Below, piece by piece: positions 19,583 through 54,698 of a DNA stretch of 64,000 nucleotides. The translations under genes and the position numbers were made by a program. Source of the stretch: Burkholderiales bacterium (lineage in GTDB: Bacteria; Pseudomonadota; Gammaproteobacteria; Burkholderiales; SG8-41); assembly GCA_964203275.1 (NCBI GenBank), contig CAXNMF010000010.1, positions 16,159-80,158 on the forward strand, given 5' to 3'. Every line of letters begins with the position of its first letter. The stretch's first letter is position 1. The notes beneath the pieces are model-generated. The model ran no database searches. It saw only the letters and a program-made list of their open reading frames with translations, and had not been told where the DNA came from.

Positions 19583-20479
19583 TCAGAACTTGCGCAGGAC
19601 GATGAAATCCGCGAGTTGCGCCAGTCGCGCACCGCGGGCGCCAAACGGCGCAATCGCAGCGAGCGCCTCCTCTCGCAGTTGAGCAGCGAGCGCCTTGGCC
19701 TGGGCAATACCCATGGCGCTGACGTAGGTGGGTTTGCCCTGCTCGGCGTCCTTGCCGGCGGTTTTGCCCAGGGTCGCGGTCGACGCCTCGGCATCCAGCA
19801 CGTCATCCACGACCTGGAACGCAAGGCCCACGGACTTGGCGTAGGCATCAACACGCTCAAATTCGGCGTCGTTAAGACCACTGCCGCAACGGGCACCGAG
19901 TACGGCTGCCGCGCGGATCAGCGCACCGGTCTTGTGGATATGCATGAATTCGAGTTCGGGCACGGTCAGCGTCTTGCCGACCGCGGCGAGATCAATCGCC
20001 TGTCCGCCGGCCATGCCGCGCGAACCAGAAGCGAGGCCGAGCAGCTTGACCATCTCCAGCTGTGCTTTCGCATCGGGCGCCAGCGTGTATTCGCCGAGCA
20101 ACTGGAAGGAAAGACTTTGCAGTGCATCACCGACCAGCAGCGCGGTCGCCTCATCGAACTCGACATGGCAGGTCGGCTTGCCGCGACGAAGCACATCATC
20201 GTCCATGCATGGCAGATCGTCATGTACAAGCGAATAGGCGTGGATGATTTCAACGGCGGCGCCGGCGACGGTGACGCGTTCCGGATCAGCCTGCGACAGT
20301 TCTCCAGCGGCGTAAGCGAGCAGCGGCCTTACGCGTTTGCCCGCACCGAGCACGGCGTAACGCATCGCGGCATGCAGGCGCTGAGGGGCGATGTCCGCTG
20401 ACGGCAGCGCCTGCTGCAGAAACGCTTCGATGCGCGTCTGCCCGGCGGCGGCCCAGGCCTGGAAATCGGTGGAAGTCAC
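19583..20479 (-). CDS. ispA: Farnesyl diphosphate synthase
   Basis: First DDxxD, HAYSLVHDDLPCMDDDVLRRGKPT. Second, FQVVDDVLD. Conserved xseB-ispA-dxs order. Confidence 0.95.
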   Translation of the reverse strand: MTSTDFQAWAAAGQTRIEAFLQQALPSADIAPQRLHAAMRYAVLGAGKRVRPLLAYAAGELSQADPERVTVAGAAVEIIHAYSLVHDDLPCMDDDVLRRGKPTCHVEFDEATALLVGDALQSLSFQLLGEYTLAPDAKAQLEMVKLLGLASGSRGMAGGQAIDLAAVGKTLTVPELEFMHIHKTGALIRAAAVLGARCGSGLNDAEFERVDAYAKSVGLAFQVVDDVLDAEASTATLGKTAGKDAEQGKPTYVSAMGIAQAKALAAQLREEALAAIAPFGARGARLAQLADFIVLRKF

Positions 20480-20505
20480 AATGGATAGGGGTGGTAGATG
20501 AGCGA

Positions 20506-20745
20506 CTACTGCTCGGCTGCGCCGAAATTCTTCAGCACGCCATTTTCCAGAATTTTCACTTGCTGCTGGGCATCATGGAGCTGCGCCTGACAGAACTTGA
20601 GCAGCTCGGCGCCGCGCTTGTACGCGGTCAGCGACTGCTCCAGCGGCATCTGGCCTTCTTCCATCGCTTCGACGATTTTTTCAAGCTCGGCTAGAGCCGT
20701 TTCGAAAGTGGGCGTGGCGGATGCGGATTTTGTGGTTTTGGACAT
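20506..20745 (-). CDS. xseB: Exodeoxyribonuclease VII small subunit
   Basis: 79 aa. FETALAELEKIVEAMEEGQMPLEQSLTAYKRGAELLKFCQAQL is typical XseB. Confidence 0.92.
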   Translation of the reverse strand: MSKTTKSASATPTFETALAELEKIVEAMEEGQMPLEQSLTAYKRGAELLKFCQAQLHDAQQQVKILENGVLKNFGAAEQ

Positions 20746-20886
20746 AAGGGTGCGCGACCCCGCGAAAGGGTCAGGAAATGTAGCGCAATCAGAAGGTTGC
20801 GGTCAACGATGGCGCCATGGAAACACGCCGGACGCCCCGTGACCGAACGACCCGCTCAGCAATGCGGACGATGTATGCCAGCCGCG

Positions 20887-22098
20887 CTAATGATGTTCAT
20901 CCACAGCGCGTGGAATCAGGCTCTGTTTGCCGAGCGGTTTTAACGATGCTTCATTACTGTTCAGGCAAATCTCGCGCATCGCCAGCAGTGCCCGGGCTGC
21001 CGCGGTTTCGCGCCAGAACCAGTTTTCGATCGCCAAAGGCGCTAGATTGCCCGGTTGTGCGGCAGCCGCTTCGTAGTAATAAGCCTTGATGTCGTCGCAC
21101 GCGCGTTTCACCGCAATGCCCGCCGACCAGTCTGGCTTGGGTGGAGCAACCGGCTTGCCCTCCAGATAAGCAGCGACATGATTCGCCGCGTCATCCACCG
21201 TCGCGGCAAAGACCCCGACGGTGGTGCGTCCGCGGCGTTTTTTCGCCAAGTCATACCAGGACGCCAGCTGTGCAATCTCTTCAAACATCGCACGGCCCAG
21301 TTCATCCGCTTTCAGCGGAGGCGGTGCAAAACTGACGGGACAGGCGAAACCGCCTTGCTGCGTTTCAGTTGCCGGCGCTTCTTCGGGAAAATCCTCCAGC
21401 ACCGGTCCTGTCTGACGTTCGAACAATGTCAGAAGTGCATGCAGCACGCGACGCTGGAAGTCCGGCTCATTCGGCGCGCCCAATGGCCGACCGAGCATGA
21501 ACGGCACCCACAAGGCCCGCGGTGGCCGGATCGCCGCGGTCTGCTCGCGAATCAGACTGATCTGCGCAGTCGCAACGCCTTCCCGTTCCAGGTAGTGGCT
21601 CAGTGCGCCCACGGCGCACGTGCAGTTCGGTCAGACCGGCGTTAGTACAACCGCGTCTACGCGATCTTTTTTCAGCAGCGCAGCCAGTTCGCGGGCTTTT
21701 GGTTCGAGTGCGCGGATCGGCGCCGCACCCATGAAGGAATAATGGAAATCTGCAACTTCTCCGATTACTCCGCCCGCTGCCAGTTCGCGCAGCCGCTGCA
21801 GCGGAAATGCGACGTTGAGATCTTCCTGAAAACCGGTACGGTCGAAATTGACCGACATGTGGCTCATCACCAGATCGCCCGGCGGCGTATCACCGGGAAT
21901 CACGCGATAGTCCGTAGCACCAGTGGCGAACGGACGGTCATCGCGCACATGAATGCCTGCCGTAGTAACAATCGCGACGCGGCGCTCACGCAGTGGCGAT
22001 CCTGCAAGGAACGGTGTGTGGCCGAAGTCAGGCAGATCGTCAATCTTGTCGAGATGATGCTTACGTTCTGCTTCGGGAAAATCGCTCAATCGCGCCAT
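20887..22098 (-). CDS. GrdB/PrdB-family (glycine/sarcosine/betaine/D-proline reductase subunit B-like) selenoprotein; in-frame TGA at 21631..21633 read as Sec (codon 156)
   Basis: Track ORFs 21631..22098 and 20887..21612 are in the same frame with only a TGA and 6 sense codons between them: ...DRVDAVVLTPV-U-PNCTCAVGALSHYLEREGVATAQISLIRE... Hairpin immediately downstream. selA, selB and selC are in the window. GGAGA RBS before the ATG at 22098. Confidence 0.8.
21603..21619 (-). promoter_or_regulatory. Putative bacterial SECIS hairpin for the GrdB-like gene
   Basis: On the minus strand, GUGCGCC-GUG-GGCGCAC: perfect 7-bp stem, GUG loop. Stem starts 11 nt after the UGA; loop G is 19 nt from it. 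Confidence 0.55.
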
Positions 22099-22170
22099 AT
22101 CATCTCCAGTTTGATCGCCTTCACGCCTGCACCCTGACTGCAGAAACGACAGTGTGTCACAGCGGACATT

Positions 22171-22755
22171 TTATTTTTGGAGACAGCGCAGCATCACCGC
22201 TGCGATATCGCTCAGCACCGCACGATCGGGATTGGCCTTGCCGACCAGCCGTAAACCCTGGATACCGGAAACCAGAAAACGCGCCAGCGATGCCACATCC
22301 GCATCCGCTGCAATTTCACCACGCGTCCGCGCGCGTGCGAGCGCAGTCTCAAACGCGGCTTCGATCCGCGCCAGACTTTGCCGCACCCGGGCCGCCGTCG
22401 CGCGATCCTGCGCGGCCAGCTCGGTGGCGCAATTGCCGATGAAGCAGCCGGCACGGCCCGGCCCGGCAACGACGCGGTCGATCAATCCGTCGATGAATCC
22501 GCTGATCGCCTTGAGTACCGGCGCGTCTCCGGATAACGCTGCATCAATGCGCCCCAGCGTTTGCCCCTCGTAGCGTTCAAGCGACCGGTGCAGCAACTCG
22601 CGCTTGCCGCCATAAGCCGCATAAAGGCTGGATCGGCTTAGCCCGGTGACCGTGCATAAGTCATCGATGGAAGTTCCGCGATAACCCCGGGCCCAGAAGG
22701 CCTGCATGGCCTTCTCGACAGCCGCTTCAGCGTCAAATTCACGCGGTCTGGCCAC
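22171..22755 (-). CDS. TetR/AcrR-family transcriptional regulator
   Basis: N-terminal HTH FWARGYRGTSIDDLCTVTGLSRSSLYAAYGGKRELL. 194 aa. Shares 1 nt with the upstream DUF302 gene. Confidence 0.88.
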   Translation of the reverse strand: MARPREFDAEAAVEKAMQAFWARGYRGTSIDDLCTVTGLSRSSLYAAYGGKRELLHRSLERYEGQTLGRIDAALSGDAPVLKAISGFIDGLIDRVVAGPGRAGCFIGNCATELAAQDRATAARVRQSLARIEAAFETALARARTRGEIAADADVASLARFLVSGIQGLRLVGKANPDRAVLSDIAAVMLRCLQK

Positions 22756-23204
22756 TAGCGCACGGACTCCGCTGCGAGTCCGGCGAGGGCTTTCTGCAGA
22801 TTGGGCACTACGGCGCAGTTGCCGGCTTCGTGGCGTTTGCCGAGGTAAGCGGGATCGTTATAGCCCAGCCAGTTTTGCCCTGAGGCATCCTGCCACGCCA
22901 GCACCTTCAGCGGCAGGTCGATGCCGGCGGTCTGCGCGCATTCCATCAAAGGTGTGCCGCCCTGCGGGTTGCCGAACACCAGCAATTCCGTGGGGCGCAG
23001 ATCCTTGCCGATTTTTTTTGCGCCGGCGGCATGGTCAACGCGCAGGAATATATTGAGTCCCTTGCCCTTCGCCGCAGCCTCGAAACGATCCATCGTGTCT
23101 TTGACGCTGTGTGCGCTTTTCACCGCGATCAGCCCGTCAGCGGCACCCGCGTGTACGGCAAACATGGCGAACAACGTTCCAGCAATGATGCAATTCAAGC
23201 CCAT
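22755..23204 (-). CDS. DUF302 domain protein with signal peptide
   Basis: MGLNCIIAGTLFAMFAVHAGAADG then SVKDTMDRFEAAAKGKGLNIFLRVDHAAGAKKIG...ELLVFGNPQGGTPLM...IDLPLKVLAWQD (DUF302 pattern). GGAGA RBS before the ATG at 23204. Confidence 0.75.
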   Translation of the reverse strand: MGLNCIIAGTLFAMFAVHAGAADGLIAVKSAHSVKDTMDRFEAAAKGKGLNIFLRVDHAAGAKKIGKDLRPTELLVFGNPQGGTPLMECAQTAGIDLPLKVLAWQDASGQNWLGYNDPAYLGKRHEAGNCAVVPNLQKALAGLAAESVR

Positions 23205-23220
23205 GATTTTCTCCAATGGA

Positions 23221-23817
23221 TTATTTGGCATGCACGCCAGGGGTCCATCCGGAAGCCGTGAGGTGCTCCCGGGCGAATTCCAGCGGATGGTCTTCAAGTT
23301 GTGTTGCCAGCGTGTCGTTCCACCGGTTCATCCAGCCGAACATGGAAATCACCGAGACGATTTCGATGATGGCGTCTTCGGAAAAATGTTTTTTCAGTTC
23401 ATCGAAATGCGCGTCCGTGACCGAAGGCGGCGTGCCGCCGGCAGCAAGAGCCAGATTGAGCGCAGCCCGCTCGGCCGGCGTAAACAGCGGGCTGGACTGG
23501 AACTGCCACAAGGCGTGCAGCTTCTCATCCGCCACCTTGCCGCGCTCGACAGCGTTTTCGGCGTTGTGCGCGGTGCAGTAGCGGCAGCCGGAGGCATTGC
23601 TGACGACTTCGGCGATCATGAAACGCAGTGCTGCCGGCACTTCGCCGGCATCCACCATCACCGCATCGCGCAGTTCTCGCACCAGCCTGAACACCCGCGG
23701 TTTGCGCGCCAGGGTCAGCCAGCTGTTGGGGACATACCCGCGCTGCTTGCGGGCCTTTTCGAAGTCCGGGGCGAGTTCCGCCAGGCGTTCGGCCGGCGCA
23801 GGTGAGATACGGGACAT
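23221..23817 (-). CDS. Carboxymuconolactone decarboxylase (AhpD-like) family peroxidase-related protein
   Basis: CxxC motif within IAEVVSNASGCRYCTAHN, typical of the AhpD/CMD fold. Start set at MSRISPAPAERL (ATG at 23817). Confidence 0.75.
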   Translation of the reverse strand: MSRISPAPAERLAELAPDFEKARKQRGYVPNSWLTLARKPRVFRLVRELRDAVMVDAGEVPAALRFMIAEVVSNASGCRYCTAHNAENAVERGKVADEKLHALWQFQSSPLFTPAERAALNLALAAGGTPPSVTDAHFDELKKHFSEDAIIEIVSVISMFGWMNRWNDTLATQLEDHPLEFAREHLTASGWTPGVHAK

Positions 23818-24052
23818 GGTTTTCCTCGTGGATGGTGAATCGGTTCGCGGAGTCGGGTTGACCGCTGGCCGATTCATTATAGAATGATCGTTCCAGAATG
23901 CAACTGGCCCGATAATCAACGTCTGCCACGGCGAAACCATGCGGTCCGGCAACACATGGTGACAAGCGACAAGCCGCTTGTAAGGTTTATGCTGCGGTTG
24001 CGACTGACCGGTAGCTTTCAACCGGATCCGTATTTTTCAGGAGTTCATTTCA

Positions 24053-25018
24053 ATGCACGCCACACTCCCGCTGCTGGACGCCACCGGCTTCCCGGCGATC
24101 CACCGCAAGGCAGTCGAGACCCTCCAGGTCAACCTCGGCTACAAGTGCAACCAGAGCTGCCTGCACTGCCACGTCAACGCCGGGCCGACGCGCACGGAGC
24201 TGATGTCGCGTGAAACCATTTTCGAAGTCATCGCCTGCCTGAAGGCGGCAAACATCCGCACGCTGGACGTCACCGGCGGCGCGCCGGAACTGAATCCACA
24301 TTTCCGCATGCTGGTCGAATCCGCTCGCGGGCTTGACGTGCGGGTTATCGACCGCTGCAACCTGACCATCCTGTTCGAACTGGGGCATGAAGACCTCGCG
24401 CAGTTCCTCGCTGATCAACAGGTCGAAATCACCGCATCGCTGCCCTGCTACCTTGAGGACAACGTTGACCGCCAGCGCGGCAAGGGCGTGTTCGACACCA
24501 GTATCCGCGCGCTGCAGAAACTCAACAGCCTCGGTTACGCACAGCCGGGATCGCCGCTGAAACTGAACCTGGTCTATAACCCGCAGGGCCCTGTGCTGCC
24601 GCCCGGCCAGGAAGGCCTGCAGCGCGATTATCAGCAGCGCCTGTTCGACGGCTACGGTGTGGTGTTCAACGAACTGTATGCGCTGACCAATATGCCGATC
24701 CAGCGTTTCGGCAGCACGCTCGTCTCCAAAGGCCAGTTCGATCCGTACATGAAACTGCTGAAAGGTGCTTACCGCGCCGAAAACCTCGACACCGTGATGT
24801 GCCGGACGCTTCTGTCGGTGGACTGGCAGGGTTACGTTTATGACTGCGATTTCAATCAGATGCTGGAATTGCCGCTGCTGTGGAAGGGCCGTCCGCGCAC
24901 ACACCTGCGCGAACTGCTCGGCGCAGACCTTGAAGGCAATCCGATTGCCGTGCGGGACCACTGCTATGGCTGTACGGCAGGGCAGGGTTCTAGCTGCGGC
25001 GGCGCGCTGGCTGACTGA
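24053..25018 (+). CDS. arsS: ArsS-type radical SAM / Cys-rich domain protein (Cys form of a family that includes selenoproteins)
   Basis: Radical SAM cluster motif GYKCNQSCLHCH. C-terminal Cys-rich tail DHCYGCTAGQGSSCGGALAD. Overall match to the radical SAM/Cys-rich family as I remember it. Confidence 0.8.
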   Translation: MHATLPLLDATGFPAIHRKAVETLQVNLGYKCNQSCLHCHVNAGPTRTELMSRETIFEVIACLKAANIRTLDVTGGAPELNPHFRMLVESARGLDVRVIDRCNLTILFELGHEDLAQFLADQQVEITASLPCYLEDNVDRQRGKGVFDTSIRALQKLNSLGYAQPGSPLKLNLVYNPQGPVLPPGQEGLQRDYQQRLFDGYGVVFNELYALTNMPIQRFGSTLVSKGQFDPYMKLLKGAYRAENLDTVMCRTLLSVDWQGYVYDCDFNQMLELPLLWKGRPRTHLRELLGADLEGNPIAVRDHCYGCTAGQGSSCGGALAD

Positions 25019-25036
25019 TCGCACGAAAGCCCATCC

Positions 25037-26422
25037 ATGATCGAACCGGCATTCGCCATCTATTTCTGGGGTTTCCTGCTGCTGTACGGCGGTGCGATGT
25101 ACGCGATCACGCCACGCTCGCGCACGGCTGCCAGTTTTTTCACCGGCAGCGACGACGCGGGCCGTCCGGCCACAGAATGGGCGCTGATGTGCAGCATTTT
25201 CATCAGTTGGATATTCGCCAAGTCGGTGACCAACGCCGCCAATCTCGGCGCGGCGTGGGGCGTGGTGGGCGGCCTCGCCTACGCAACCTACTGGCTGTCA
25301 ATCCCGGTCGCCGGCATCGTGATTTACCGGTTGCGCACACGCCATGGCGCGACCGGACTGGTACCTTTCCTGATCACGCGTTACGGCAGGCTTGCCGCAT
25401 TGGCGTTCACGCTGGCCATCCTGATCCGGCTTTACAACGAAGTCTGGAGCAACACAGCCGTCGTCGGCGCCTATTACGGACAAGCCGGCTCATGGACCTT
25501 CATCACCGCAGCGCTGCTGTTTACTGCGGCGACGCTGGTCTATGCACTGAAGGGCGGATTACGCAGTTCCATCGTTACCGATGTCATCCAGACCGTTCTG
25601 TTCATCGTCGCACTGGGTGCCGTGCTGTTCCTGGTGCTGCCGCACCATGGCCTGGGCACGCTGCTGTCGGTCGGCGACTTCCGCATGAATGCCGGCGTCG
25701 ACCTGATTCTGGTCGCACTGCTGCAGGTACTGTCCTATCCCTTCCACGACCCGGTGCTCACCGATCGCGGTTTCATCACCCGCGAGAAAACCATGCTGCG
25801 CGCGATGATCACCGCCGGCGTGCTGGGTTTCGTCTGCATCTTTGCATTCAGCCTGGTCGGTGTTCACGCCAAACTGGAAGGGCTGCCTGCGGGCGACAAC
25901 ATGCCGGGCGCCGTTGCGCTGGCCTTCGGCACGATTCCCTATCTGCTGATGACCATAGTGATGATCATGGCCGCGGGTTCGACGTTGGACTCGACATTCG
26001 CCTCGGTCGCCAAGTCGATCGGTCAGGAAGTGCCGATGCTCGTCGGCCGCAAACCGGGTGCGCGTGCGATGGTTGTGGGCATGTGGACAATGATCGTGTT
26101 CGCGCTGCTCGGCAACATTCCAATGATTGCCGGCACCGACATTCTGAAGGCCACCACCATCAGCGGCACGATGGTGATGGGCCTGGCACCGGTGTTCCTG
26201 CTGGCGCCGTTGGTCAAACATTCCCCATGGAGCTTCCATCTGGCGTTCTGGCCCGGCGTGTTGCTCGGTGTGCTGCTTGCGGCCGGCATGATTCCGCCGT
26301 CCTTGGCCATTGGTGACGGCAAATACGCATTGCTGCTCGGCGTGAACTTTTACGGGCTCGGCCTGTGCACTGCTGGTTTCCTGCTGCCGATTGCCCTGCA
26401 GAAACTGCGCGGACCACGATGA
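25037..26422 (+). CDS. Sodium:solute symporter (SSS)-family-like permease
   Basis: 461 aa, about 12 TM segments. Stop overlaps the next start (ATGA at 26419..26422). Family assigned from overall topology and sequence feel only. Confidence 0.6.
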   Translation: MIEPAFAIYFWGFLLLYGGAMYAITPRSRTAASFFTGSDDAGRPATEWALMCSIFISWIFAKSVTNAANLGAAWGVVGGLAYATYWLSIPVAGIVIYRLRTRHGATGLVPFLITRYGRLAALAFTLAILIRLYNEVWSNTAVVGAYYGQAGSWTFITAALLFTAATLVYALKGGLRSSIVTDVIQTVLFIVALGAVLFLVLPHHGLGTLLSVGDFRMNAGVDLILVALLQVLSYPFHDPVLTDRGFITREKTMLRAMITAGVLGFVCIFAFSLVGVHAKLEGLPAGDNMPGAVALAFGTIPYLLMTIVMIMAAGSTLDSTFASVAKSIGQEVPMLVGRKPGARAMVVGMWTMIVFALLGNIPMIAGTDILKATTISGTMVMGLAPVFLLAPLVKHSPWSFHLAFWPGVLLGVLLAAGMIPPSLAIGDGKYALLLGVNFYGLGLCTAGFLLPIALQKLRGPR

Positions 26423-27423
26423 GTTCCGAGCAACAACCCGGGCGCAGCTGCCCGCTGCACTACCGCTACCCGCCGGAGTCGCTGAACCGTGCTGCGGATT
26501 TCAACGCCGACACGTTGTATGTGATTGGCGGTCTTTATGGCAACGCCGCTGCATTGCGTACCATCGAAGAACTGGCGGCAGCCGAAGCCGCGGTGCCAAC
26601 ACTGACCTTCAACGGCGACTTCAACTGGTTCAACATCGATGCTGCCGGTTTCCGGGACATCAATGAAGCCGTACTTCGCCACCATGCACTGCGCGGCAAC
26701 GTCGAAACCGAACTGGCGAACGATGATGACGCCGAGGGCTGCGGCTGTGGTTATCCAGACAGTGTCAGCGACAAGGAAGTCGAACGGTCCAACGCCATCC
26801 TCGCGCGCCTGCGCGAAACGGCGAAACCTTTTCCGGAGCTGCGTACTCAACTGGCCGCGCTGCCGATGAATCTGGTCGCACAGGTCGGCAAACTGCGTGT
26901 GGCGATTGTCCACGGCGACTGCGAGTCGCTTGCCGGCTGGTCGTACGACGAATCAGCACTGCGCGACGCACCGGGCATTGCCCATGTTGCCGAGCATTGC
27001 AAAGCGGCCGACGTGAATATCATTGCCAGCAGCCACACCTGCCTGCCCGTCGCGCTGGCGCTGGACACGACGAAAGGTGCGGCCGCGCTGTTCAACAACG
27101 GCGCGGCCGGCATGCCCAATTTCGCCGGCACGTCGTTCGGCGTGATCACGCGGATTTCCACAACACCCGCCACGACATCGGCGACCTTGTATGGAACGGT
27201 GATTAACGGCATCCACATCGATGCCATTGCCGTCCACTATGACCACTCCGCATGGCAGGCAGCATTCAGCGCAAACTGGCCCGACGGCAGCACAGCCGAG
27301 CTCTCCTACGGCAAACGTATCAACAACGGCCCGCGTTACGGGCTCAATCGCGCGATGGGGCGCGGTATCCGCATCAGCCGCAACCTGTTGCAACAGGTAC
27401 GCACGGCCGGAGGACAGTCTTGA
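26419..27423 (+). CDS. Metallophosphoesterase-like protein (degenerate calcineurin-type motifs)
   Basis: LYVIGGLYGN, NGDFNWF, LRGNVE, VAIVHGD and IIASSHTC resemble the MPE motif series, but the first DxH is replaced. Start is the ATG at 26419 (MSSEQQPG). Confidence 0.55.
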   Translation: MSSEQQPGRSCPLHYRYPPESLNRAADFNADTLYVIGGLYGNAAALRTIEELAAAEAAVPTLTFNGDFNWFNIDAAGFRDINEAVLRHHALRGNVETELANDDDAEGCGCGYPDSVSDKEVERSNAILARLRETAKPFPELRTQLAALPMNLVAQVGKLRVAIVHGDCESLAGWSYDESALRDAPGIAHVAEHCKAADVNIIASSHTCLPVALALDTTKGAAALFNNGAAGMPNFAGTSFGVITRISTTPATTSATLYGTVINGIHIDAIAVHYDHSAWQAAFSANWPDGSTAELSYGKRINNGPRYGLNRAMGRGIRISRNLLQQVRTAGGQS

Positions 27424-29552
27424 ACAAAAGCAAATTGCTGGTCGTCGCCATCATCGCGGCCGCCATCACCGCATTTTTTGTATTTGACCTGAAGCAATAT
27501 GTCTCGCTGGATTACTTCCAGTCGCAGCGTGCGGCCATCGAAGCTGCCGTGGCCGCAGACCCGGTTCGGGCCGGCCTGCTGTTTTTCGCCATCTACGTCG
27601 CTGCCACTGGCTTGTCGCTGCCCGGCGCCTCGGTACTGACGCTGATCGCGGGTGCCATCTTCGGACTGCTCTGGGGCACCCTCATCGTGTCATTCGCCTC
27701 GACCATCGGGGCCACGCTCGCGTTCCTGACATCACGTTTCCTGCTGCGGGATTGGGTGCAGCAGCGCTTCGGCGACCGGCTGCGTCCGATCAATGAAGGC
27801 GTTGCACGCGAAGGCGCGTTCTACCTGTTCGCATTGCGGCTGGTGCCGGCGTTTCCGTTCTTCGCCGTGAACCTGCTGATGGGGTTGACGCCGATCCGCA
27901 CCGCAACCTACTACTGGGTCAGCCAGCTCGGCATGTTTGCGGGCACCGTGGTCTATGTTTATGCGGGAACCCAACTTGGCGAATTCCGCATCTCGGCAGG
28001 ACTCATCGGGGCCTTTGTATTGTTGGGTCTGTTCCCGCTGATCGCCAAAAAAACCCTCGATGCACTCAAGGCCCGCAAGGTCTATGCCGGCTGGGCACGC
28101 CCGGCAACCTTTGACCGCAATCTTGTCGTGATCGGCGGCGGCTCCGCCGGACTGGTCTCGGCATACATTGCCGCCGCGGTAAAGGCAAAAGTGACACTGG
28201 TCGAAAAACACAAGATGGGCGGTGATTGTCTGAACACCGGCTGCGTGCCGTCGAAGGCGCTGATCAAGTCGGCCAAGCTGGTTGCCACGATGAAACATGC
28301 GACCGATTTCGGTCTGAAAAATACGCTGGTGGATTTTGATTTCGCTGACGTGATGGAACGTGTGCAGCGCGTGGTGCGAGAGATCGAACCGCATGATTCG
28401 ATCGAGCGTTACACGAAACTCGGCGTCGAGTGCCTGACCGGTGAAGCAAAAATCGTATCGCCATGGTCGGTGGAAATCACCACGGCAGGCAGCAAACAGA
28501 CCCTGACCACCCGCGGCATCATCATCGCCGCCGGCGCGCGGCCCTTCGTGCCGCCGATCCCCGGCATTGAAGACACTGGCTATCTGACCTCAGACACGCT
28601 GTGGGACCTTCGCCAGCTGCCGAAGCGCCTGCTGGTACTCGGCGGTGGTCCGATCGGCTGTGAGCTGACGCAGTGTTTTGCCCGCCTTGGTGCGCAGGTC
28701 ACACAAGTCGAAATGCTGCCGCGGCTGATGATACGCGAGGACCCGGAGATATCGGATCTGGTCATGCAGAGGTTCCGCGCCGAGGGCGTCAACGTGCTGG
28801 TCAGCCACAAGGCACAACGCTTCGCCATCGAGAATGGCGAGAAGGTGCTGTATTGCGAGCATAACGGCGACACCGTGCGCATCGTCTTCGACACGCTGCT
28901 CTGCGCCGTCGGCCGCGTTGCCAATACCACCGGTTACGGCCTTGAAGAACTCGGCATTCCTGTGACCAAGGCCCGCACCGTCGAAGTCAACGAATTCATG
29001 CAGACCAAATATCCGAACATCCTCGCCTGCGGCGATATCGCCGGCCCATATCAATTCACACATACCGCAGCGCACACCGCCTGGTACGCCGCAGTCAACG
29101 GCCTGTTCGGCGGATATAAAAAATTCCGCGCCGACTTCTCGGTGATTCCGTGGGCGACCTTCACCGATCCCGAAGTGGCACGCGTCGGGCTTAATGAAAC
29201 CGAAGCGAAGGAAAAAAATATTCCTTATGAAGTCACCACCTACGGCATTGACGACCTCGACCGCGCCATCGCGGACGGCAACGCCCACGGCCTGGTCAAA
29301 GTGCTGACCGTGCCCGGCAAAGACAAAATCCTCGGCGCCACCATCGCCGGCGAACACGCTGGCGACCTGATCACCGAATTCGTCAGCGCCATGAAACACG
29401 GCATCGGACTGAACAAGATCCTCGGCACCATCCACATCTATCCAACGCTAGCCGAAGCCAACAAATACGTCGCCGGGAACTGGAAGCGCAATCACGCACC
29501 TAAAGGATTGCTGGAGTGGGTGGAAAAGTTTAATGCGTGGCGGCGCAACTAG
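27420..29552 (+). CDS. Fusion protein: TVP38/TMEM64 (DedA-like) membrane domain + class-I pyridine nucleotide-disulfide oxidoreductase (MerA/Lpd-like)
   Basis: TTG start overlaps the previous TGA. N-terminal membrane domain (LPGASVLTLIAGAIFGLLWGT...FALRLVPAFPFFAVNLLMG), then VVIGGGSAGLVSAY, redox-active GGDCLNTGCVPSKAL, second Rossmann LVLGGGPIGCELTQ, and a dimerisation domain with HIYPTLAE. Confidence 0.85.
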   Translation: MNKSKLLVVAIIAAAITAFFVFDLKQYVSLDYFQSQRAAIEAAVAADPVRAGLLFFAIYVAATGLSLPGASVLTLIAGAIFGLLWGTLIVSFASTIGATLAFLTSRFLLRDWVQQRFGDRLRPINEGVAREGAFYLFALRLVPAFPFFAVNLLMGLTPIRTATYYWVSQLGMFAGTVVYVYAGTQLGEFRISAGLIGAFVLLGLFPLIAKKTLDALKARKVYAGWARPATFDRNLVVIGGGSAGLVSAYIAAAVKAKVTLVEKHKMGGDCLNTGCVPSKALIKSAKLVATMKHATDFGLKNTLVDFDFADVMERVQRVVREIEPHDSIERYTKLGVECLTGEAKIVSPWSVEITTAGSKQTLTTRGIIIAAGARPFVPPIPGIEDTGYLTSDTLWDLRQLPKRLLVLGGGPIGCELTQCFARLGAQVTQVEMLPRLMIREDPEISDLVMQRFRAEGVNVLVSHKAQRFAIENGEKVLYCEHNGDTVRIVFDTLLCAVGRVANTTGYGLEELGIPVTKARTVEVNEFMQTKYPNILACGDIAGPYQFTHTAAHTAWYAAVNGLFGGYKKFRADFSVIPWATFTDPEVARVGLNETEAKEKNIPYEVTTYGIDDLDRAIADGNAHGLVKVLTVPGKDKILGATIAGEHAGDLITEFVSAMKHGIGLNKILGTIHIYPTLAEANKYVAGNWKRNHAPKGLLEWVEKFNAWRRN

Positions 29553-29866
29553 GCTTACAAGAGCGCTCGATCGACCAATGGTTTTGAGGTCCCCCTTGTG
29601 AGCCGCCGAGCAGCACAGCGATTTCGGGGGCCGTCGGCGAGCACTGTCTGAGCCCTCGCCTGCGAGGGCGAGTTGCGGAGCCGCCCGGCCGCGCGAGCAG
29701 CGCAGGGAAGCCCGAAGGGCCGGCGAGCCGGGGTCGCCTTCTTTTGGTTACTTTTCTTGGCGAAGCAAGAAAAGTAACTGGCCGCCGGGCCACCCCCGGC
29801 GAAGTTGAAGCACCGCACAACCCACGACCACAAAAAAATCACAAGCCGTACCATTAAATCAATCCC
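29553..29866. repeat. GC-rich REP-like mosaic element with a 13-bp perfect hairpin
   Basis: GTTACTTTTCTTG-GCGAAG-CAAGAAAAGTAAC (29747..29778) and palindrome GCCCTCGC-CT-GCGAGGGC (29652..29669). The track ORFs here (29530..29820, 29555..29854) are Arg/Pro/Gly-rich shadows typical of such elements. Confidence 0.65.
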
Positions 29867-30697
29867 ATGAAAAACCTCCTCTCCATCCTGCTACTGACCT
29901 TGATCCCGCTGGCAGCCACTGCCCAATCCTTCGACCACGACCACAAACCCTGGGCCACCCTGCTCAAAAAACACGTCGTGCTCTTCGACAACAGCAAAGC
30001 CTCACAAGTCCGTTACGCCGGCTTCGCGCAAGATCGCAATGAACTAAAGGCCTACCTCGGCACGCTGTCCAAAGTGACCCAGGCCGAATTCAACGCCTGG
30101 ACCAAAGCGCAACAAATGGCTTTCCTGATCAATGCCTACAACGCCTACACGGTCGAAAAAATCCTCACCCGCTACCCGAACATCAAATCCATCCGGGATT
30201 TCGGAAAAGTTTTTGGAAACCCCTTCAAGGACAAATTCTTCACATTGTTGGGCCGCGAACATTCGCTGGACATGATCGAACACGAAACGCTGCGCAAGCC
30301 CGGCGCCTACGACGAGCCGCGGGTGCATTTCGCGGTGAATTGCGCGTCAACCGGCTGCCCGATGCTGCGTGAGGAAGCCTACGTCGCCGCGCGCCTGGAT
30401 GCGCAACTGGAAGAGCAAACCAAACGCTTCCTGTCCGACCGCAGCCGCAACCGCTTCATCGTGCAGGACAATGCGCTGGAGGTATCGGAGATATTCAAAT
30501 GGTTCGCCACCGACTGGAGCAGCGGCTACCGTGGTTTCGAAGGAAAAAGTCCGGCGATGCAGTCGCGAGAACAGTTTTTTGCGAAATATGCAGCACTGCT
30601 CGCCGATTCACCGGCACAGCAGCAGAGCATTGCCGATCGCAAGGCTGCAATCCGGCATCTGGATTATGATTGGACGTTGAACGACGCCAAAAAATAA
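29867..30697 (+). CDS. DUF547 domain protein, secreted
   Basis: Signal peptide MKNLLSILLLTLIPLAATAQS. AFLINAYNAYTVEKIL and RVHFAVNCASTGCPML are the DUF547 hallmarks. Confidence 0.8.
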   Translation: MKNLLSILLLTLIPLAATAQSFDHDHKPWATLLKKHVVLFDNSKASQVRYAGFAQDRNELKAYLGTLSKVTQAEFNAWTKAQQMAFLINAYNAYTVEKILTRYPNIKSIRDFGKVFGNPFKDKFFTLLGREHSLDMIEHETLRKPGAYDEPRVHFAVNCASTGCPMLREEAYVAARLDAQLEEQTKRFLSDRSRNRFIVQDNALEVSEIFKWFATDWSSGYRGFEGKSPAMQSREQFFAKYAALLADSPAQQQSIADRKAAIRHLDYDWTLNDAKK

Positions 30698-30703
30698 CTG
30701 CTG

Positions 30704-31390
30704 ATGTCGCTATCACTGATCGTCCCGACACTGAATGAAGCCCACGGCATCATCGACATGCTGCAAGCCTTGCAGCCGTTGCGGGACCGTGGCTGCGAGG
30801 TTATCGTGGTGGACGGCGGCAGCACCGATCACACACCGGTGCTGGCGCGACGCTGGTGCGATCTGGTGCTGCGCGCGCCCGGCGGCCGCGCCAGACAGAT
30901 GAATGCCGGCGCAGCGGCTGCCAGCAGCGAGATCCTCTGCTTCCTGCATGCGGATTGTTTTTTGCCGGAGGGCGCCGACGGACTGATCGTCGCTGGCCTC
31001 GCGCGTGGCCGGCGCAGTTGGGGACGTTTCGACGTCACGATCCACGGCTCACACCCGATGCTGCGCGTGGTTGCATGGATGATGAACTGGCGTTCGCGGC
31101 TGACCGGTATCGCCACGGGTGACCAGGGCCTGTTCATGACGCGCTCGGTGTTTGAAGCGGCAGGACGTTTTCCAGAAATCGCGCTGATGGAAGACATCGC
31201 GCTGACAAAACAACTCAAACGTTATGGCAAGCCGCTGTGTATCGCCCATCGCCTGACCACCTCGGGTCGGCGCTGGGAAAAACACGGGCTGTGGCGCACG
31301 GTGCTGCTGATGTGGCGCCTGCGGCTCGCTTACTTTCTAGGCGCGGACCCCAATCGGCTGGCCGCCCAGTATGTCCGCCACAAACCCTGA
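30704..31390 (+). CDS. Family-2 glycosyltransferase-like protein (the 'transferase 2' partner of ArsS-type rSAM proteins)
   Basis: SLIVPTLNEAHGI...VIVVDGGSTDHT...FLHADCFLP (GT-A fold, DxD-like motifs). Confidence 0.75.
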   Translation: MSLSLIVPTLNEAHGIIDMLQALQPLRDRGCEVIVVDGGSTDHTPVLARRWCDLVLRAPGGRARQMNAGAAAASSEILCFLHADCFLPEGADGLIVAGLARGRRSWGRFDVTIHGSHPMLRVVAWMMNWRSRLTGIATGDQGLFMTRSVFEAAGRFPEIALMEDIALTKQLKRYGKPLCIAHRLTTSGRRWEKHGLWRTVLLMWRLRLAYFLGADPNRLAAQYVRHKP

Positions 31391-32018
31391 TCTGACGATC
31401 CTCGTTTTCGCCAAAGCACCGGTACCCGGCACGACGAAGACACGCCTGATCCCGCTGCTGGGTGCGGAACAGTCTGCGGCATTGCAGTCGCGCTTGCTGC
31501 GGCATGCCCTCGCAACGGCATCTGCAGCGGCACCGGCCCGCGTCGAACTGTGGTGTGCACCGGATGCCACCCATCCCGCGCTGATCGCCGCGGCACAGAC
31601 CTGCGGCGCAACACTGCACGTGCAGCACGGCGACGAACTGGGTGCGCGTATGGCAAATGCGTTCACCAGCGCATTGCAACGCGTACCTCTCGCCATCTGC
31701 ATCGGGACCGACTGTCCGGCGCTGACCGTTCAGCACCTGCATGATGCAGCCGCGGCACTACGCGCAAACCACGATGCCGTATTCGTGCCGGCGGAAGACG
31801 GCGGCTATACATTGGTCGGGCTTTCACGAAATGAACCGCGAGTGTTCGGCAATATCACCTGGAGCAGCGAGCACGTGATGCGGCAGACTCGCGAACGCGC
31901 GCGTGCCTGCGGGTTGCGCTGGCATGAAATGGAAACCCTGTGGGACGTAGACCGGCCGGAAGACTGGCAACGCCTGCAGCAATCAGGACTGCTCGATGCA
32001 ACACCGTCGCCGGCCTGA
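31371..32018 (+). CDS. DUF2064 nucleotidyl/glycosyl-transferase-like protein (the 'transferase 1' partner of ArsS-type rSAM proteins)
   Basis: LVFAKAPVPGTTKTRLIP...GDELGARMANAF...CIGTDCPALT...VFVPAEDGGYTLVG is the DUF2064 pattern. 20-nt overlap with the preceding gene. Confidence 0.75.
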   Translation: MSATNPDLTILVFAKAPVPGTTKTRLIPLLGAEQSAALQSRLLRHALATASAAAPARVELWCAPDATHPALIAAAQTCGATLHVQHGDELGARMANAFTSALQRVPLAICIGTDCPALTVQHLHDAAAALRANHDAVFVPAEDGGYTLVGLSRNEPRVFGNITWSSEHVMRQTRERARACGLRWHEMETLWDVDRPEDWQRLQQSGLLDATPSPA

Positions 32019-32784
32019 GCGTCTGCGTGCGCTATTGGCGGCGCTGGCGATGCTAACGGTCGCAACCGCGTACGCGGTTGAGGAGCGCGTCATCGCCGCC
32101 GCCTTTTCCGTCGTACGGCCCGGTGCGGCGCTACCCACAGGCTGGGGGCCGCTGGAGGCCGCGAACATCAAGGTGCGCACGCGCTACACGCTGGTGGATG
32201 ACAACGGCACAACAGTATTGCGTGCCGATTCCGAACGGGGCGCCTCGGGACTTTCACGCCAGTTGCACATCAATCCGACCGAACTGCCGTGGCTGCGCTG
32301 GCGCTGGAAAATCAGCAACCTCATCGAAACCGCGGATCTGCGAACGAAGGAAGGCGACGATTTTCCGGCGCGGATCTATGTCATGTTTGATTACCCACTG
32401 GAAAAGCTGCCCTTCCTGGAACGCAACAAGCTGCGAATGGCCAGAGCACTCTTCGATCCGAATCTGCCTGCGGCGACACTGTGTTACGTATGGGACGGCA
32501 AGGCTGCCGCAGACACCATCGCGTCCAGCGCTTATACCGACCGTGTAAAAATCATCGTCGTCGAGTCTGGCTCCAGCCGGGTCAGGCAATGGGTGAATGT
32601 CGAACGCAACATCGCACGTGATTTCCGCGCGGCCTTCGGCGAGGATGCCCCACCCGTCAGCGCCATTGCCGTGGCCACCGACACGGATAACACGGGTACT
32701 TTTGCAACAGCCCATTTTGGCGATATTTCTTTTAATAAACATCAAGTTAAGACACCGCCCGCAAGTGCGACAGCGAATCCTTGA
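31996..32784 (+). CDS. DUF3047 domain protein, secreted
   Basis: Signal-like N-terminus. LRWRWKISNLIETADLRTKEGDDFPARIYVMFDYP matches the DUF3047 core. 23-nt overlap with the preceding gene. Confidence 0.7.
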   Translation: MQHRRRPERLRALLAALAMLTVATAYAVEERVIAAAFSVVRPGAALPTGWGPLEAANIKVRTRYTLVDDNGTTVLRADSERGASGLSRQLHINPTELPWLRWRWKISNLIETADLRTKEGDDFPARIYVMFDYPLEKLPFLERNKLRMARALFDPNLPAATLCYVWDGKAAADTIASSAYTDRVKIIVVESGSSRVRQWVNVERNIARDFRAAFGEDAPPVSAIAVATDTDNTGTFATAHFGDISFNKHQVKTPPASATANP

Positions 32785-53041: not shown

Positions 53042-53062
53042 TCACTGAACTGAGAGAACGCC

Positions 53063-53971: not shown

Positions 53972-53980
53972 GACTGCTGT

Positions 53981-54529: not shown

Positions 54530-54603
54530 ACGTCACCACAGTCTGGAACCGCATTTCTCGTCAGCACCGCGCCGTCTTACAATGTCGGCCGCGCAGTAAC
54601 AAC

Positions 54604-54698
54604 GGAAGGGAATCGCTCCCGGTGGGGCGGCCGGACTTCAAACCCGGTAGGGGCCGCGAGCGGTCCTGTGTGGGTTCGACTCCCACTCTCTTCCGCCA
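54604..54698 (+). tRNA. selC: tRNA-Sec (anticodon UCA)
   Basis: 95 nt including CCA. 8-bp acceptor stem GGAAGGGA/UCUCUUCC. 6-bp D-stem CGCUCC/GGGGCG with a 4-nt loop. Anticodon loop CUUCAAA. Long variable arm GGGGCCGC..GCGGUCCU. T-arm GUGGG-UUCGACU-CCCAC. The 8/5 architecture is diagnostic of bacterial tRNA-Sec. Confidence 0.93.

What the first reader, a model, noticed from the sequence alone, without database searches (positions are those of the whole stretch)
20887..22098. GrdB/PrdB-family selenoprotein (U-P-N-C-T-C) in an aerobe-type betaproteobacterial context, split by the ORF track
ORFs 21631..22098 (155 aa) and 20887..21612 (241 aa) are in the same frame. Only TGA (21631..21633) and six sense codons separate them: ...KDRVDAVVLTPV-U-PNCTCAVGALSHYLEREGVATAQISL... 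The N-terminal half resembles subunit B of the glycine/sarcosine/betaine/D-proline reductases, whose catalytic Sec is followed by nearby Cys residues. A perfect 7-bp hairpin, GUGCGCC-GUG-GGCGCAC (21603..21619), starts 11 nt after the UGA. No GrdA/GrdC/GrdD/GrdE or PrdA partners are present in this window. Instead, the gene ends a probable operon of AhpD-like CMD protein, DUF302 and TetR. A stand-alone GrdB-like selenoprotein outside the clostridial Stickland context has no assigned substrate, as far as I know.
Basis: partly seen in the sequence, partly recalled or inferred. Interest (0 to 1): 0.7.

Follow-up and report, generated by a model that had tools for sequence, protein, structure and literature searches.

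The report
PrdB-like selenoprotein gene split at UGA
The two ORFs are one real 403-residue selenocysteine-containing enzyme gene related to subunit B of proline and glycine reductases. It belongs to a widespread family already catalogued in 2005 as "PrdB", whose true substrate is still unknown.

Summary
Minus-strand 22098..20887 is one reading frame with a single in-frame TGA (21633..21631), and a 17-nt hairpin starts 11 nt after it.

The TGA is a selenocysteine codon:
- All 81 related genes in 80 species-representative genomes carry TGA at this column.
- Every full-length database homologue has Cys there.
- The column aligns with the active-site U/C-x-x-C of authentic PrdB.
- The hairpin is kept far beyond what the peptide requires and is absent from 4 of 5 Cys forms.
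- selA, selB and tRNA-Sec lie in the same window.

The protein is not a D-proline or glycine reductase subunit. It scores far below both curated cut-offs and carries an extra ~175-residue helical C-terminal domain. No PrdA/PrdC/PrdD/PrdE homologue occurs in the window or in 1.03 Mb around 95 loci.

It is not new. The 2005 Sargasso Sea selenoproteome supplement lists members of this family as "Proline reductase PrdB" (47% identity to the window protein). RefSeq calls relatives [quoted passage not shown].

The most likely function is a stand-alone Sec/Cys (UxxC) reductase with an unknown substrate. A weak lead links it to the neighbouring ArsS/DUF547 cluster.

The parts
20887..22098 (-). Complete selenoprotein CDS of 403 codons plus TAG stop. 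It has an N-terminal PrdB-like alpha/beta domain (about aa 35-228) and a family-specific helical C-terminal domain (about aa 230-403).
   Evidence: One frame with a single TGA. Pfam GRDB 33.4 bits (gathering score 22) on aa 35-153. TIGR04483 E 2.4e-29 on aa 34-227. AF2 model of the Cys homologue P0121 has pLDDT 92.5. PrdB sequences end where the C-terminal domain begins.
21631..21633 (-). UGA codon 156, read as selenocysteine. It is the first residue of the U-x-x-C motif (Sec156, Cys159).
   Evidence: TGA in 81 of 81 related genes. Cys in all full-length homologues. Aligns with the U/C of PrdB 'G-[C/U]-G-T-C'.
21603..21619 (-). Bacterial SECIS hairpin: 7-bp stem, GUG loop, starting 11 nt after the UGA.
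   Evidence: MFE -13.6 kcal/mol. 92% paired, with 5 of 7 pairs showing compensatory changes. Exceeds the synonymous-codon null. Lost in 4 of 5 Cys forms. Meets the published bSECIS criteria.
22104..22107 (-). GGAG Shine-Dalgarno-like motif 5 nt upstream of the ATG at 22098..22096.
   Evidence: Read directly from the sequence. Not tested further.
22171..22755 (-). TetR-family regulator immediately upstream and co-directional. Probable local regulator.
   Evidence: Pfam TetR_N and TetR_C_13. A homologue lies beside the gene in 17 of 82 related loci and in L001.
22755..23297 (-). DUF302 protein, co-directional upstream.
   Evidence: Pfam DUF302 75.8 bits. Homologue present in 8 of 82 loci.
23221..24021 (-). 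CMD/AhpD-like protein with a CxxC motif (…GCRYC…), co-directional upstream. Possible thiol redox partner.
   Evidence: Pfam CMD. TIGR01926 77 bits. CMD-like ORFs lie near the gene in 18 of 82 loci.
49617..51023 (+). selA (selenocysteine synthase), a trans-acting requirement.
   Evidence: TIGR00474 575.6 bits, cut-off 267.9.
51020..53041 (+). selB (Sec-specific elongation factor that binds the SECIS hairpin).
   Evidence: TIGR00475 418.3 bits, cut-off 242.25.
54604..54698 (+). tRNA-Sec (anticodon UCA).
   Evidence: ARAGORN.

Best explanation
Minus-strand 22098..20887 is one gene for a 403-residue selenoprotein.

Supported by comparative sequence evidence (Se incorporation itself was not tested):
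- UGA-156 is a selenocysteine codon.
- It is followed, after an 11-nt spacer, by a conserved 17-nt hairpin with an invariant G-U at the start of its loop. That is the geometry of a bacterial SECIS.
- The organism encodes SelA, SelB and tRNA-Sec 28-33 kb away in the same window.
- The N-terminal alpha/beta domain is homologous to PrdB/GrdB.
- Sec156 and Cys159 align with the catalytic U-x-x-C of PrdB.
- A C-terminal all-helical domain of about 175 residues is specific to this family.
- No pyruvoyl-type partner (PrdA, PrdD, PrdE) is encoded nearby.

Inferred:
- SelB with Sec-tRNA(Sec) binds the hairpin while the ribosome sits on the UGA and inserts Sec. When selenium is lacking, translation stops after 155 residues.
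- The enzyme works alone, or with thiol redox partners, as a selenol/thiol reductase.
- The Sec156 selenolate sits between a beta-strand and the N-terminus of a helix. It attacks an electrophilic centre of a small-molecule substrate.
- Cys159 then resolves the adduct into a Se-S bond.
- That bond is re-reduced by a cellular dithiol system, such as thioredoxin or the neighbouring AhpD-like CMD protein.
- The upstream TetR protein probably controls expression in response to the substrate or a related compound.

The substrate is unknown. It is very unlikely to be D-proline or glycine.
For: One frame, one TGA.

Sec codon:
- TGA is conserved in 81 of 81 orthologues and paralogues from Betaproteobacteria, Alphaproteobacteria, Desulfobacterota, Chloroflexota and Entotheonella.
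- About 14 full-length homologues all have Cys at that column in the motif PVCPxCTR.
- One population carries both alleles, TGA CCC and TGC CTC. Only 2 nt differ in the 1110-nt gene.

SECIS hairpin:
- 92% paired, with 5 of 7 pairs showing compensatory changes.
- 6.45 of 7 pairs against a synonymous-codon null of 4.51 +/- 0.11. 57% of sequences are perfect, against 3.8% in the null.
- Cys forms keep 2, 4, 7, 4 and 3 of 7 pairs.
- It meets the published bSECIS model: 7-bp stem, 3-nt loop starting G-U, 18 nt from UGA to loop, MFE -13.6 kcal/mol.

Sec machinery: selA, selB and tRNA-Sec are in the window.

Homology:
- Pfam GRDB is above its gathering score.
- TIGR04483 gives E 2.4e-29.
- tblastn of a real Clostridium PrdB gives 31% identity over 190 aa, E 3e-21, spanning the TGA.
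- An alignment with eight database PrdBs places U and C159 on the PrdB C/U-G-T-C motif, with 20 invariant columns.

Architecture and context:
- The AF2 model of P0121 has pLDDT 92.5. The CxxC lies between strand 150-154 and helix 158-173, and the C-terminal domain is helical.
- There is no PrdA/C/D/E in 1.03 Mb of window plus 95 loci.
- TetR and CMD-like genes are the commonest neighbours.
Against: - No experimental evidence for Se incorporation or for any activity.
- The single-sequence hairpin is not significant against shuffles.
- The compared sequences are related, so covariation counts are not independent events.
- One of five Cys forms (L093) still has a perfect hairpin. Hairpin loss after Sec-to-Cys conversion is therefore not immediate, and five is a small sample.
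- selD was not found in the window. It was not searched for elsewhere.
- The catalytic cycle is transferred by analogy from PrdB/GrdB chemistry, where a pyruvoyl subunit is required. How a stand-alone protein would activate a substrate is unexplained.
- Gene neighbourhoods differ widely across the family. One common substrate is therefore unlikely.
Confidence: 0.8

Rival explanations
1. It is the genuine PrdB subunit of a D-proline reductase (or a GrdB of a glycine, sarcosine or betaine reductase). The partner genes lie elsewhere in the genome.
For: IMG labels relatives 'D-proline reductase (dithiol) PrdB'. Selenoproteome papers call the family 'proline reductase'. PrdB is the best NCBIfam hit.
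Against: - It scores 102.5 bits against a TIGR04483 cut-off of 300.
- It scores 47.3 bits against a cut-off of 65.45 for the Grd/Prd subfamily model TIGR01918.
- It is 403 aa with an extra helical domain. PrdB has 241 aa.
- In a real prd operon, prdC-prdA-prdB-prdD-prdE are adjacent.
- None of these has a homologue in the window or near any of 95 loci.
Confidence: 0.03
2. The TGA is a true stop. Either two separate proteins are made (155 aa and 241 aa) or the gene is a pseudogene.
For: Gene callers annotate it this way in hundreds of assemblies.
Against: - The six codons between the TGA and the GTG (P-N-C-T-C/R-A) are conserved at the protein level in all relatives.
- Cys forms are single fused proteins.
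- A pseudogene would not keep TGA at one column, and both halves under constraint, across phyla.
- The hairpin is conserved beyond coding needs.
Confidence: 0.02
3. Sequencing or assembly artefact at the TGA.
For: None specific.
Against: The same codon appears in 81 of 81 independent genes from different projects and technologies.
Confidence: 0.01
4. A more specific functional reading: the protein is a redox component of the adjacent ArsS-type cluster. That cluster holds a radical-SAM 'selenodomain' protein, a DedA-FAD disulfide reductase, DUF547, and the TIGR04282 and TIGR04283 transferases. The protein might, for example, reduce an organoarsenical or organoselenium intermediate.
For: - The cluster is divergently adjacent in the window (24053..32784) and in 8 betaproteobacterial loci.
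- In a Desulfomonile MAG (L059, 52% identity) the selenoprotein gene is followed co-directionally by DUF547, the DedA-FAD reductase and ArsS.
- DUF547 is also nearby in L042 and L082.
Against: - The 8 betaproteobacterial cases share xseB-ispA-dxs synteny, so they count as one event.
- Of the roughly 55 more distant loci, only L059 has the full cluster within 6 kb, and L082 has DUF547 alone.
- Other family members sit in unrelated catabolic contexts.
Confidence: 0.12

Closest known systems
'Proline reductase PrdB' selenoprotein family of the marine selenoproteome surveys (Zhang, Fomenko & Gladyshev 2005, PMC1088965; Zhang & Gladyshev 2008, PMC2398784; also 'proline reductase' in the Olavius delta-1 symbiont, PMC1976440)
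   Same: This is the same family. Supplementary sequences such as AACY01078217 (…LLTPVuPNCTRSVGAL…PRALWVSFPLGRPLG…GPVLEDYP…) and AACY01791542 carry the same U-P-x-C-T motif and the same C-terminal domain. AACY01791542 is 47% identical to the window protein over 242 aa, E 8e-77. The surveys report a UxxC motif, pfam07355, and 42 and 235 Sec genes respectively.
   Different: Nothing structural differs. Those papers treat the family as D-proline reductase. They do not discuss the missing PrdA or the extra domain. The window gene comes from a betaproteobacterium-like genome, not from surface-ocean plankton.
D-proline reductase subunit PrdB (TIGR04483; Clostridium sticklandii, C. difficile, C. sporogenes)
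   Same: The alpha/beta catalytic domain is homologous, at about 26-32% identity. The Sec or Cys is in the same column, followed by x-x-C. The P-R-A and G-x-P-N motifs downstream are shared.
   Different: PrdB has 241 aa and no C-terminal helical domain. It is encoded between prdA and prdD/E and needs the pyruvoyl subunit from PrdA. The window protein scores 102 bits against a cut-off of 300 and has no such partners.
Glycine, sarcosine and betaine reductase protein B selenoproteins GrdB, GrdF and GrdH (TIGR01917, NF040794, NF040795; Pfam PF07355)
   Same: Same superfamily. The Pfam GRDB hit is above its gathering score, and the match falls on the part of GrdB just before and around its Sec (profile positions 222-403 of about 431).
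   Different: GrdB is about 435 aa, with an additional 200-residue N-terminal region and a UxxCxxC motif. The window protein lacks that region and has UxxCxC, whose last Cys is not conserved. It scores 40-52 bits against cut-offs of 600-800. No grd genes are nearby.
Thiol-disulfide-type UxxC selenoproteins (thioredoxin-like, Prx-like, DsbA-like)
   Same: It probably works in a similar way. A redox-active Sec-x-x-Cys pair sits at a strand-to-helix junction and cycles through a selenenylsulfide.
   Different: The fold is unrelated. The N-terminal domain is PrdB-like, not thioredoxin-fold. There is no significant match in the PDB.

Membership tests
Bacterial selenoprotein gene (Sec-UGA plus bSECIS) | In-frame UGA aligned with Cys in homologues | tested here: met
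   All full-length homologues that span the column have Cys there (A2). Cys and Sec alleles exist in one population.
Bacterial selenoprotein gene (Sec-UGA plus bSECIS) | UGA conserved in orthologues, with both flanks under protein-level constraint | tested here: met
   81 of 81 genes in 80 loci.
Bacterial selenoprotein gene (Sec-UGA plus bSECIS) | bSECIS model: 4-16 bp upper stem, 3-9 nt apical loop with G in its first two positions, 16-37 nt from UGA to the loop, MFE <= -7.5 kcal/mol (criteria from PMC13188914) | tested here: met
   7-bp stem, GUG loop, 18 nt spacing, MFE -13.6 kcal/mol. Conserved with covariation. Above the synonymous-codon null.
Bacterial selenoprotein gene (Sec-UGA plus bSECIS) | Sec-insertion machinery in the genome (selA, selB, selC, selD) | tested here: met
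   selA, selB and tRNA-Sec are in the window. selD was not seen in the window and the rest of the genome is not available.
Bacterial selenoprotein gene (Sec-UGA plus bSECIS) | Selenium actually incorporated at the UGA | not testable with these tools
   Needs 75Se labelling or mass spectrometry.
GrdB/PrdB superfamily (Pfam PF07355 GRDB) | Pfam score at or above the gathering score | tested here: met
   33.4 bits against 22.
GrdB/PrdB superfamily (Pfam PF07355 GRDB) | Sec in the same column as the catalytic Sec/Cys of PrdB, followed by x-x-Cys | tested here: met
   Alignment with eight database PrdB sequences, five of them named PrdB by NCBI. tblastn with a real PrdB.
D-proline reductase PrdB (TIGR04483 equivalog) | HMM score at or above the curated cut-off of 300 bits | tested here: not met
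   102.5 bits.
D-proline reductase PrdB (TIGR04483 equivalog) | Encoded with prdA (pyruvoyl proprotein) and prdD/prdE | tested here: not met
   The real operon layout is seen in L096. No homologue at E <= 1e-3 in the window or 95 loci.
D-proline reductase PrdB (TIGR04483 equivalog) | About 240 residues, ending shortly after the catalytic domain | tested here: not met
   403 residues, with about 175 extra C-terminal residues.
Glycine/sarcosine/betaine reductase protein B (TIGR01918 subfamily) | HMM score at or above 65.45 bits | tested here: not met
   47.3 bits.
Glycine/sarcosine/betaine reductase protein B (TIGR01918 subfamily) | UxxCxxC motif and an N-terminal region of about 200 residues | tested here: not met
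   The motif here is U-P-N-C-T-C, and the third Cys is Arg or Ser in most relatives. The match starts at profile position about 222.
Glycine/sarcosine/betaine reductase protein B (TIGR01918 subfamily) | Neighbouring grdA, grdE, grdC and grdD | tested here: inconclusive
   No such Pfam or NCBIfam family among about 55 window ORFs scanned. There is no PF09338-type homologue, tested through PrdA/D/E. GrdA, GrdC and GrdD were not searched with real sequences, and short ORFs were not scanned.
Marine 'PrdB' selenoprotein family of Zhang et al. 2005 | Sequence similarity across the Sec motif and the C-terminal domain to the published sequences | tested here: met
   47% identity over 242 aa, E 8e-77, to AACY01791542.

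The most novel reading that the evidence does not exclude
The family labelled 'PrdB' in selenoproteome catalogues is not a proline reductase. It is a distinct, self-contained Sec-dependent reductase family: a PrdB-like catalytic domain fused to its own helical domain, with no pyruvoyl partner. In this lineage it may serve the adjacent ArsS/DUF547/DedA-FAD-reductase cluster, for example by reducing an organoarsenical or organoselenium intermediate. That would be a new reaction type for selenoenzymes outside Stickland fermentation.
Probability: 0.15. Interest if true: 0.65.

Novelty: already known. Interest (0 to 1): 0.3.

Why it matters
For annotation, the two ORFs should be merged into one selenoprotein CDS. 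The labels 'PrdB' and 'D-proline reductase' should not be used for it.

Biologically, this is one of the most abundant selenoprotein families outside anaerobic fermenters. Published surveys count 42 Sec genes in the Sargasso Sea and 235 in GOS. After twenty years it still has no substrate.

- PrdA-type partners are absent from 1 Mb of flanking sequence.
- The family has its own C-terminal domain.
- Recurrent neighbours are TetR, AhpD-like, DUF302, DUF547 and ArsS genes.

As a discovery in this window, however, it is an ordinary member of a catalogued family.

Tried and rejected
- Rfam scan of 20400..22400 found no family for the hairpin. There were only two sub-threshold chance hits.
- PDB sequence searches with the protein and with a family profile found nothing.
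- Foldseek of a high-confidence model against the PDB found nothing at E < 0.001. The best TM-score was 0.24, to photocobilin/B12-type proteins, which is not meaningful. The fold gave no functional lead.
The Cys homologue P0121 (43% identity) was modelled instead.
- Single-sequence folding statistics for the hairpin were not significant. Comparative tests replaced them.
- The recent Cys allele P0025 could not serve as a 'no-SECIS' control, because it differs from the Sec allele by only 2 nt and keeps the hairpin. Older Cys forms were used instead.
- Neighbourhood clustering across 82 loci (the 80 genome-scan loci, L001 and the window) found no universal partner. TctC, GST, HAD, amidase and GGDEF/EAL neighbours look incidental.
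- The promoter and terminator scan gave nothing informative around the gene.
- A scan of the window for other same-frame ORF pairs split by TGA found no second convincing selenoprotein candidate. tblastn found no paralogue in the window.
- Literature searches for 'PrdB-like', 'GrdB-like' and ArsS-cluster links found no paper treating this family as distinct.
Full report
**1. The observation**

Reading the minus strand from 22098 to 20887 gives 403 codons. The only interruption is a TGA at 21633..21631. The mechanical ORF list splits this into 21631..22098 (155 aa) and 20887..21612 (241 aa, GTG start). Both are in the same frame. Six sense codons, P-N-C-T-C-A, lie between the TGA and the GTG.

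The hairpin GUGCGCC-GUG-GGCGCAC lies at 21619..21603, starting 11 nt after the UGA. A GGAG lies 5 nt before the ATG.

**2. Is the TGA a selenocysteine codon?**

Five independent lines say yes.

(a) Split in relatives. A word-indexed search of 5.8 billion proteins returned 1900 relatives. Nearly all of the best 120 are fragments of about 240-250 aa that begin 'MGAL…', just after the TGA. Gene callers therefore split the gene in the same way everywhere. In a complete 4.0-Mb contig the 155-aa GRDB ORF and the 245-aa ORF are adjacent, as they are here.

(b) Conserved TGA. A scan of one genome per GTDB species found at least 580 loci. The 80 loci kept come from Betaproteobacteria/Burkholderiales, Alphaproteobacteria/Rhodospirillales, Desulfobacterales, Desulfarculia, Desulfomonile, Dehalococcoidia/Chloroflexota, Entotheonella and the cultured Zwartia hollandica. 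All 81 family genes in them, including a tandem pair in L055, have TGA at this column. The motif is U-P-x-C-T-[C/R/S].

(c) Cys in full-length forms. The rare full-length database proteins (P0025, P0121, P0125, P0129, P0160, P0180 and others) all have Cys there, as 'PVCPxCTR'. In one environmental population both alleles exist in the same synteny: TGA CCC in L090-92 and TGC CTC in L087-89. Only these two nucleotides differ in the 1110-nt gene.

(d) The hairpin behaves as a SECIS.
- Over 79 distinct sequences the 7-bp stem is 92% paired, and 5 of 7 pairs show changes on both sides. One example is U16-A30 becoming C16-G30: the Cys-to-Arg codon change is matched by a synonymous change in the partner codon.
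- All slid-register controls collapse to 24-44% paired.
- The stem encodes a conserved peptide, so I resampled synonymous codons using each gene's own codon usage. The observed value is 6.45 of 7 pairs against 4.51 +/- 0.11. The maximum of 2000 resamples was 4.89. 57% of sequences are perfect, against 3.8% in the null.
- Five Cys-form genes keep 2, 4, 7, 4 and 3 of the 7 pairs.
- The element meets the published bacterial SECIS model: 4-16 bp stem, 3-9 nt loop with G[G/U] at its start, 16-37 nt from the UGA, MFE <= -7.5 kcal/mol. Here the values are a 7-bp stem, a GUG loop, 18 nt and -13.6 kcal/mol.
- From my own knowledge, not tested here: an 11-nt spacer before a 17-nt minihelix is also the minimal geometry reported for E. 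coli fdhF.
- Caveats: on the single sequence the fold is not better than shuffles, and the compared sequences are related to each other.

(e) Sec machinery. The window itself carries selA (49617..51023), selB (51020..53041) and tRNA-Sec (54604..54698).

**3. What protein is it?**

Family scores. Pfam GRDB matches aa 35-153 at 33.4 bits, above the gathering score of 22. The best NCBIfam hit is PrdB (TIGR04483) on aa 34-227, with E 2.4e-29. Its 102.5 bits fall far below the cut-off of 300. The Grd/Prd subfamily model TIGR01918 gives 47.3 bits against 65.45, and the GrdB, GrdF and GrdH models give 40-52 bits against 600-800.

Testing the Sec column. It scored 432 bits on TIGR04483, so it is a valid PrdB proxy. 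I used it to retrieve real PrdBs from the database.
- In an alignment with eight of them, five named PrdB by NCBI, the window's Sec falls on the C/U of PrdB 'G-[C/U]-G-T-C-H-R' and Cys159 falls on its Cys.
- Twenty columns are invariant across both families.
- All PrdBs end where the window protein's last roughly 175 residues begin.
- A real PrdB from a Clostridium contig gives 31% identity over 190 aa (E 3e-21) by tblastn, spanning the TGA.

Structure. An AlphaFold2 model of the Cys homologue P0121 (43% identity) is confident, with pLDDT 92.5 and pTM 0.92. It shows an alpha/beta N-terminal domain with the CxxC between strand 150-154 and helix 158-173, followed by an all-helical C-terminal domain. 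Neither sequence searches nor Foldseek find a solved relative.

**4. Partners and context**

In a genuine prd operon the order is prdC, prdA, a 63-aa ORF, prdB, prdD, prdE. tblastn with those proteins finds no homologue of PrdC, PrdA, PrdD or PrdE at E <= 1e-3, either in the 64-kb window or in 95 fetched loci (1.03 Mb in total). PrdB hits every family locus. Scans of about 55 window ORFs show no Grd or Prd family.

In the window the gene follows, co-directionally, a CMD/AhpD-like protein, a DUF302 protein and a TetR regulator. Among 82 related loci, TetR homologues lie nearby in 17, CMD-like ORFs in 18 and DUF302 in 8.

An ArsS-type cluster runs divergently from 24053 to 32784:
- ArsS radical-SAM '(seleno)protein', here in its Cys form
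- an SSF transporter
- an unknown 352-aa protein
- a DedA/VTT-FAD disulfide reductase fusion
- DUF547
- TIGR04283 and TIGR04282 transferases
- DUF3047

The same juxtaposition occurs in 8 betaproteobacterial loci that also share xseB-ispA-dxs on the other side, so they count as one evolutionary event. It also occurs, as a co-directional string PrdB-like -> DUF547 -> DedA-FAD reductase -> ArsS, in a Desulfomonile MAG (L059). DUF547 recurs in L042 and L082.

Distant Cys forms sit in quite different settings: family-III CoA-transferase/TRAP-transporter clusters, amidohydrolase/monooxygenase clusters, and sulfatase clusters. Several MAGs carry two copies, and L055 has a tandem pair. The family therefore looks like a set of substrate-diversified paralogues with no universal partner.

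**5. How it most likely works**

Shown: Sec-UGA, SECIS, Sec machinery, a PrdB-type catalytic domain with U-x-x-C, and an extra domain of its own.

Inferred:
- SelB-dependent insertion of Sec156.
- A catalytic cycle in which the selenolate attacks the substrate, Cys159 resolves the adduct into a selenenylsulfide, and a dithiol system (thioredoxin or an AhpD-like protein) regenerates the enzyme.
- TetR-controlled expression.

The chemistry is borrowed from D-proline and glycine reductase, as summarised in the 2026 review. What replaces the pyruvoyl subunit is unknown. The C-terminal domain is the obvious candidate for substrate binding.

**6. Comparison with what is known, and novelty**

The family is already in the literature.
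- The 2005 Sargasso Sea selenoproteome lists 42 'Proline reductase PrdB' genes with a UXXC motif.
- The 2008 GOS study lists 235 Sec and 110 Cys forms under pfam07355.
- 'Proline reductase' selenoproteins are also listed for Anaeromyxobacter, Geobacter uraniireducens and the Olavius delta-1 symbiont, which has five copies and no GrdA or GrdB.

I checked the 2005 supplementary sequences directly. AACY01078217 reads …LLTPVuPNCTRSVGAL…PRALWVSFPLGRPLG…GPVLEDYP…, and several others carry uPFCT, uPRCT or uPLCT together with the same C-terminal domain. AACY01791542 is 47% identical to the window protein over 242 aa, E 8e-77.

RefSeq names a Cognatishimia homologue 'glycine/sarcosine/betaine reductase selenoprotein B family protein'. 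IMG names others 'D-proline reductase (dithiol) PrdB'.

So the selenoprotein status and the non-Stickland distribution are known. I did not find the family described anywhere as distinct from PrdB: no PrdA, its own C-terminal domain, below both curated cut-offs. The substrate also remains open (searches found nothing).

**7. Verdict**

The gene is a routine member of a catalogued but functionally orphan selenoprotein family. Interest is modest at 0.3. The most novel reading not excluded is a self-contained Sec reductase tied to the ArsS/DUF547 cluster. I give that reading a probability of about 0.15.

Noticed in passing
window 49617..54698 (+): selA, selB, a thioredoxin-reductase-like gene (53063..53971; TIGR01292 229 bits, below its cut-off of 343), a YaeQ-family gene (53981..54529) and tRNA-Sec (54604..54698) form one co-directional block. 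A TrxR-like gene wedged between selB and selC is unusual. It might be the reductant supply for local selenoproteins.
   Followed up: partly
window 24053..32784 (+): An ArsS-type cluster lies divergently next to the TetR/selenoprotein unit. It holds ArsS radical SAM (TIGR04167, 455 bits; Cys form, C-terminus …SSCGGALAD), an SSF transporter, an unknown 352-aa protein with no family, a DedA/VTT-FAD disulfide reductase fusion (766 aa), DUF547, TIGR04283 and TIGR04282 transferases, and DUF3047.
   Followed up: partly
L059 398..6478 (Desulfomonile tiedjei MAG); L082 1655..7218 (Desulfobacterales MAG): In L059 the Sec-containing family gene is followed co-directionally by DUF547, the DedA-FAD disulfide reductase and ArsS. 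This is an independent recurrence of the window's neighbourhood. In L082, DUF547, an LCAT-like lipase and an unknown 629-aa ORF precede the family gene on the same strand.
   Followed up: partly
L087-L089 versus L090-L092 (same synteny, environmental assemblies): A natural Sec/Cys polymorphism. The 1110-nt gene differs at only two adjacent-codon positions: TGA CCC (U-P) versus TGC CTC (C-L). The SECIS hairpin is intact in both. This is a very recent Sec-Cys switch.
   Followed up: yes
L055 6001..8196; also L005/L012, L017/L031, L022/L050, L029/L066: Paralogy is common. L055 has two family genes in tandem, both with TGA. Four MAGs contribute two different loci each, and L029 and L066 lie on one contig. 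This matches the five copies reported in the Olavius delta-1 symbiont.
   Followed up: partly
L094 3841..5505; L095 1499..3933: Two distant Cys-form homologues lie directly next to family-III CoA-transferase genes. In L095 the two genes overlap by 4 nt, and an NAD-binding dehydrogenase, a TRAP transporter and a CMD protein follow. This hints that some family members act on organic-acid or CoA-ester substrates.
   Followed up: no
e.g. L015 5629..5979; L001 9009..9359: A conserved 116-aa ORF lies immediately beside the family gene in about 16 loci. It has no Pfam hit but matches the C-terminal half of NF053654 'YciW-related (seleno)protein' (E 2e-11), so it is a CMD/AhpD-like mini-protein. The window has a 266-aa CMD protein instead (23221..24021).
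   Followed up: partly
L084 7757..8017; L085 890..1150: An 86-aa ORF with no Pfam family overlaps the start of the Cys-form family gene in two independent contigs. It could be a small partner subunit. The real prd operon also has a 63-aa ORF just before prdB (L096 6783..6974).
   Followed up: no
protein P0281 (database PrdB): One database PrdB shows Trp at the Sec column (…LTAGWGTCHR…). This is most likely a TGA translated as Trp by the source's gene caller, another way selenoproteins are mis-recorded.
   Followed up: no
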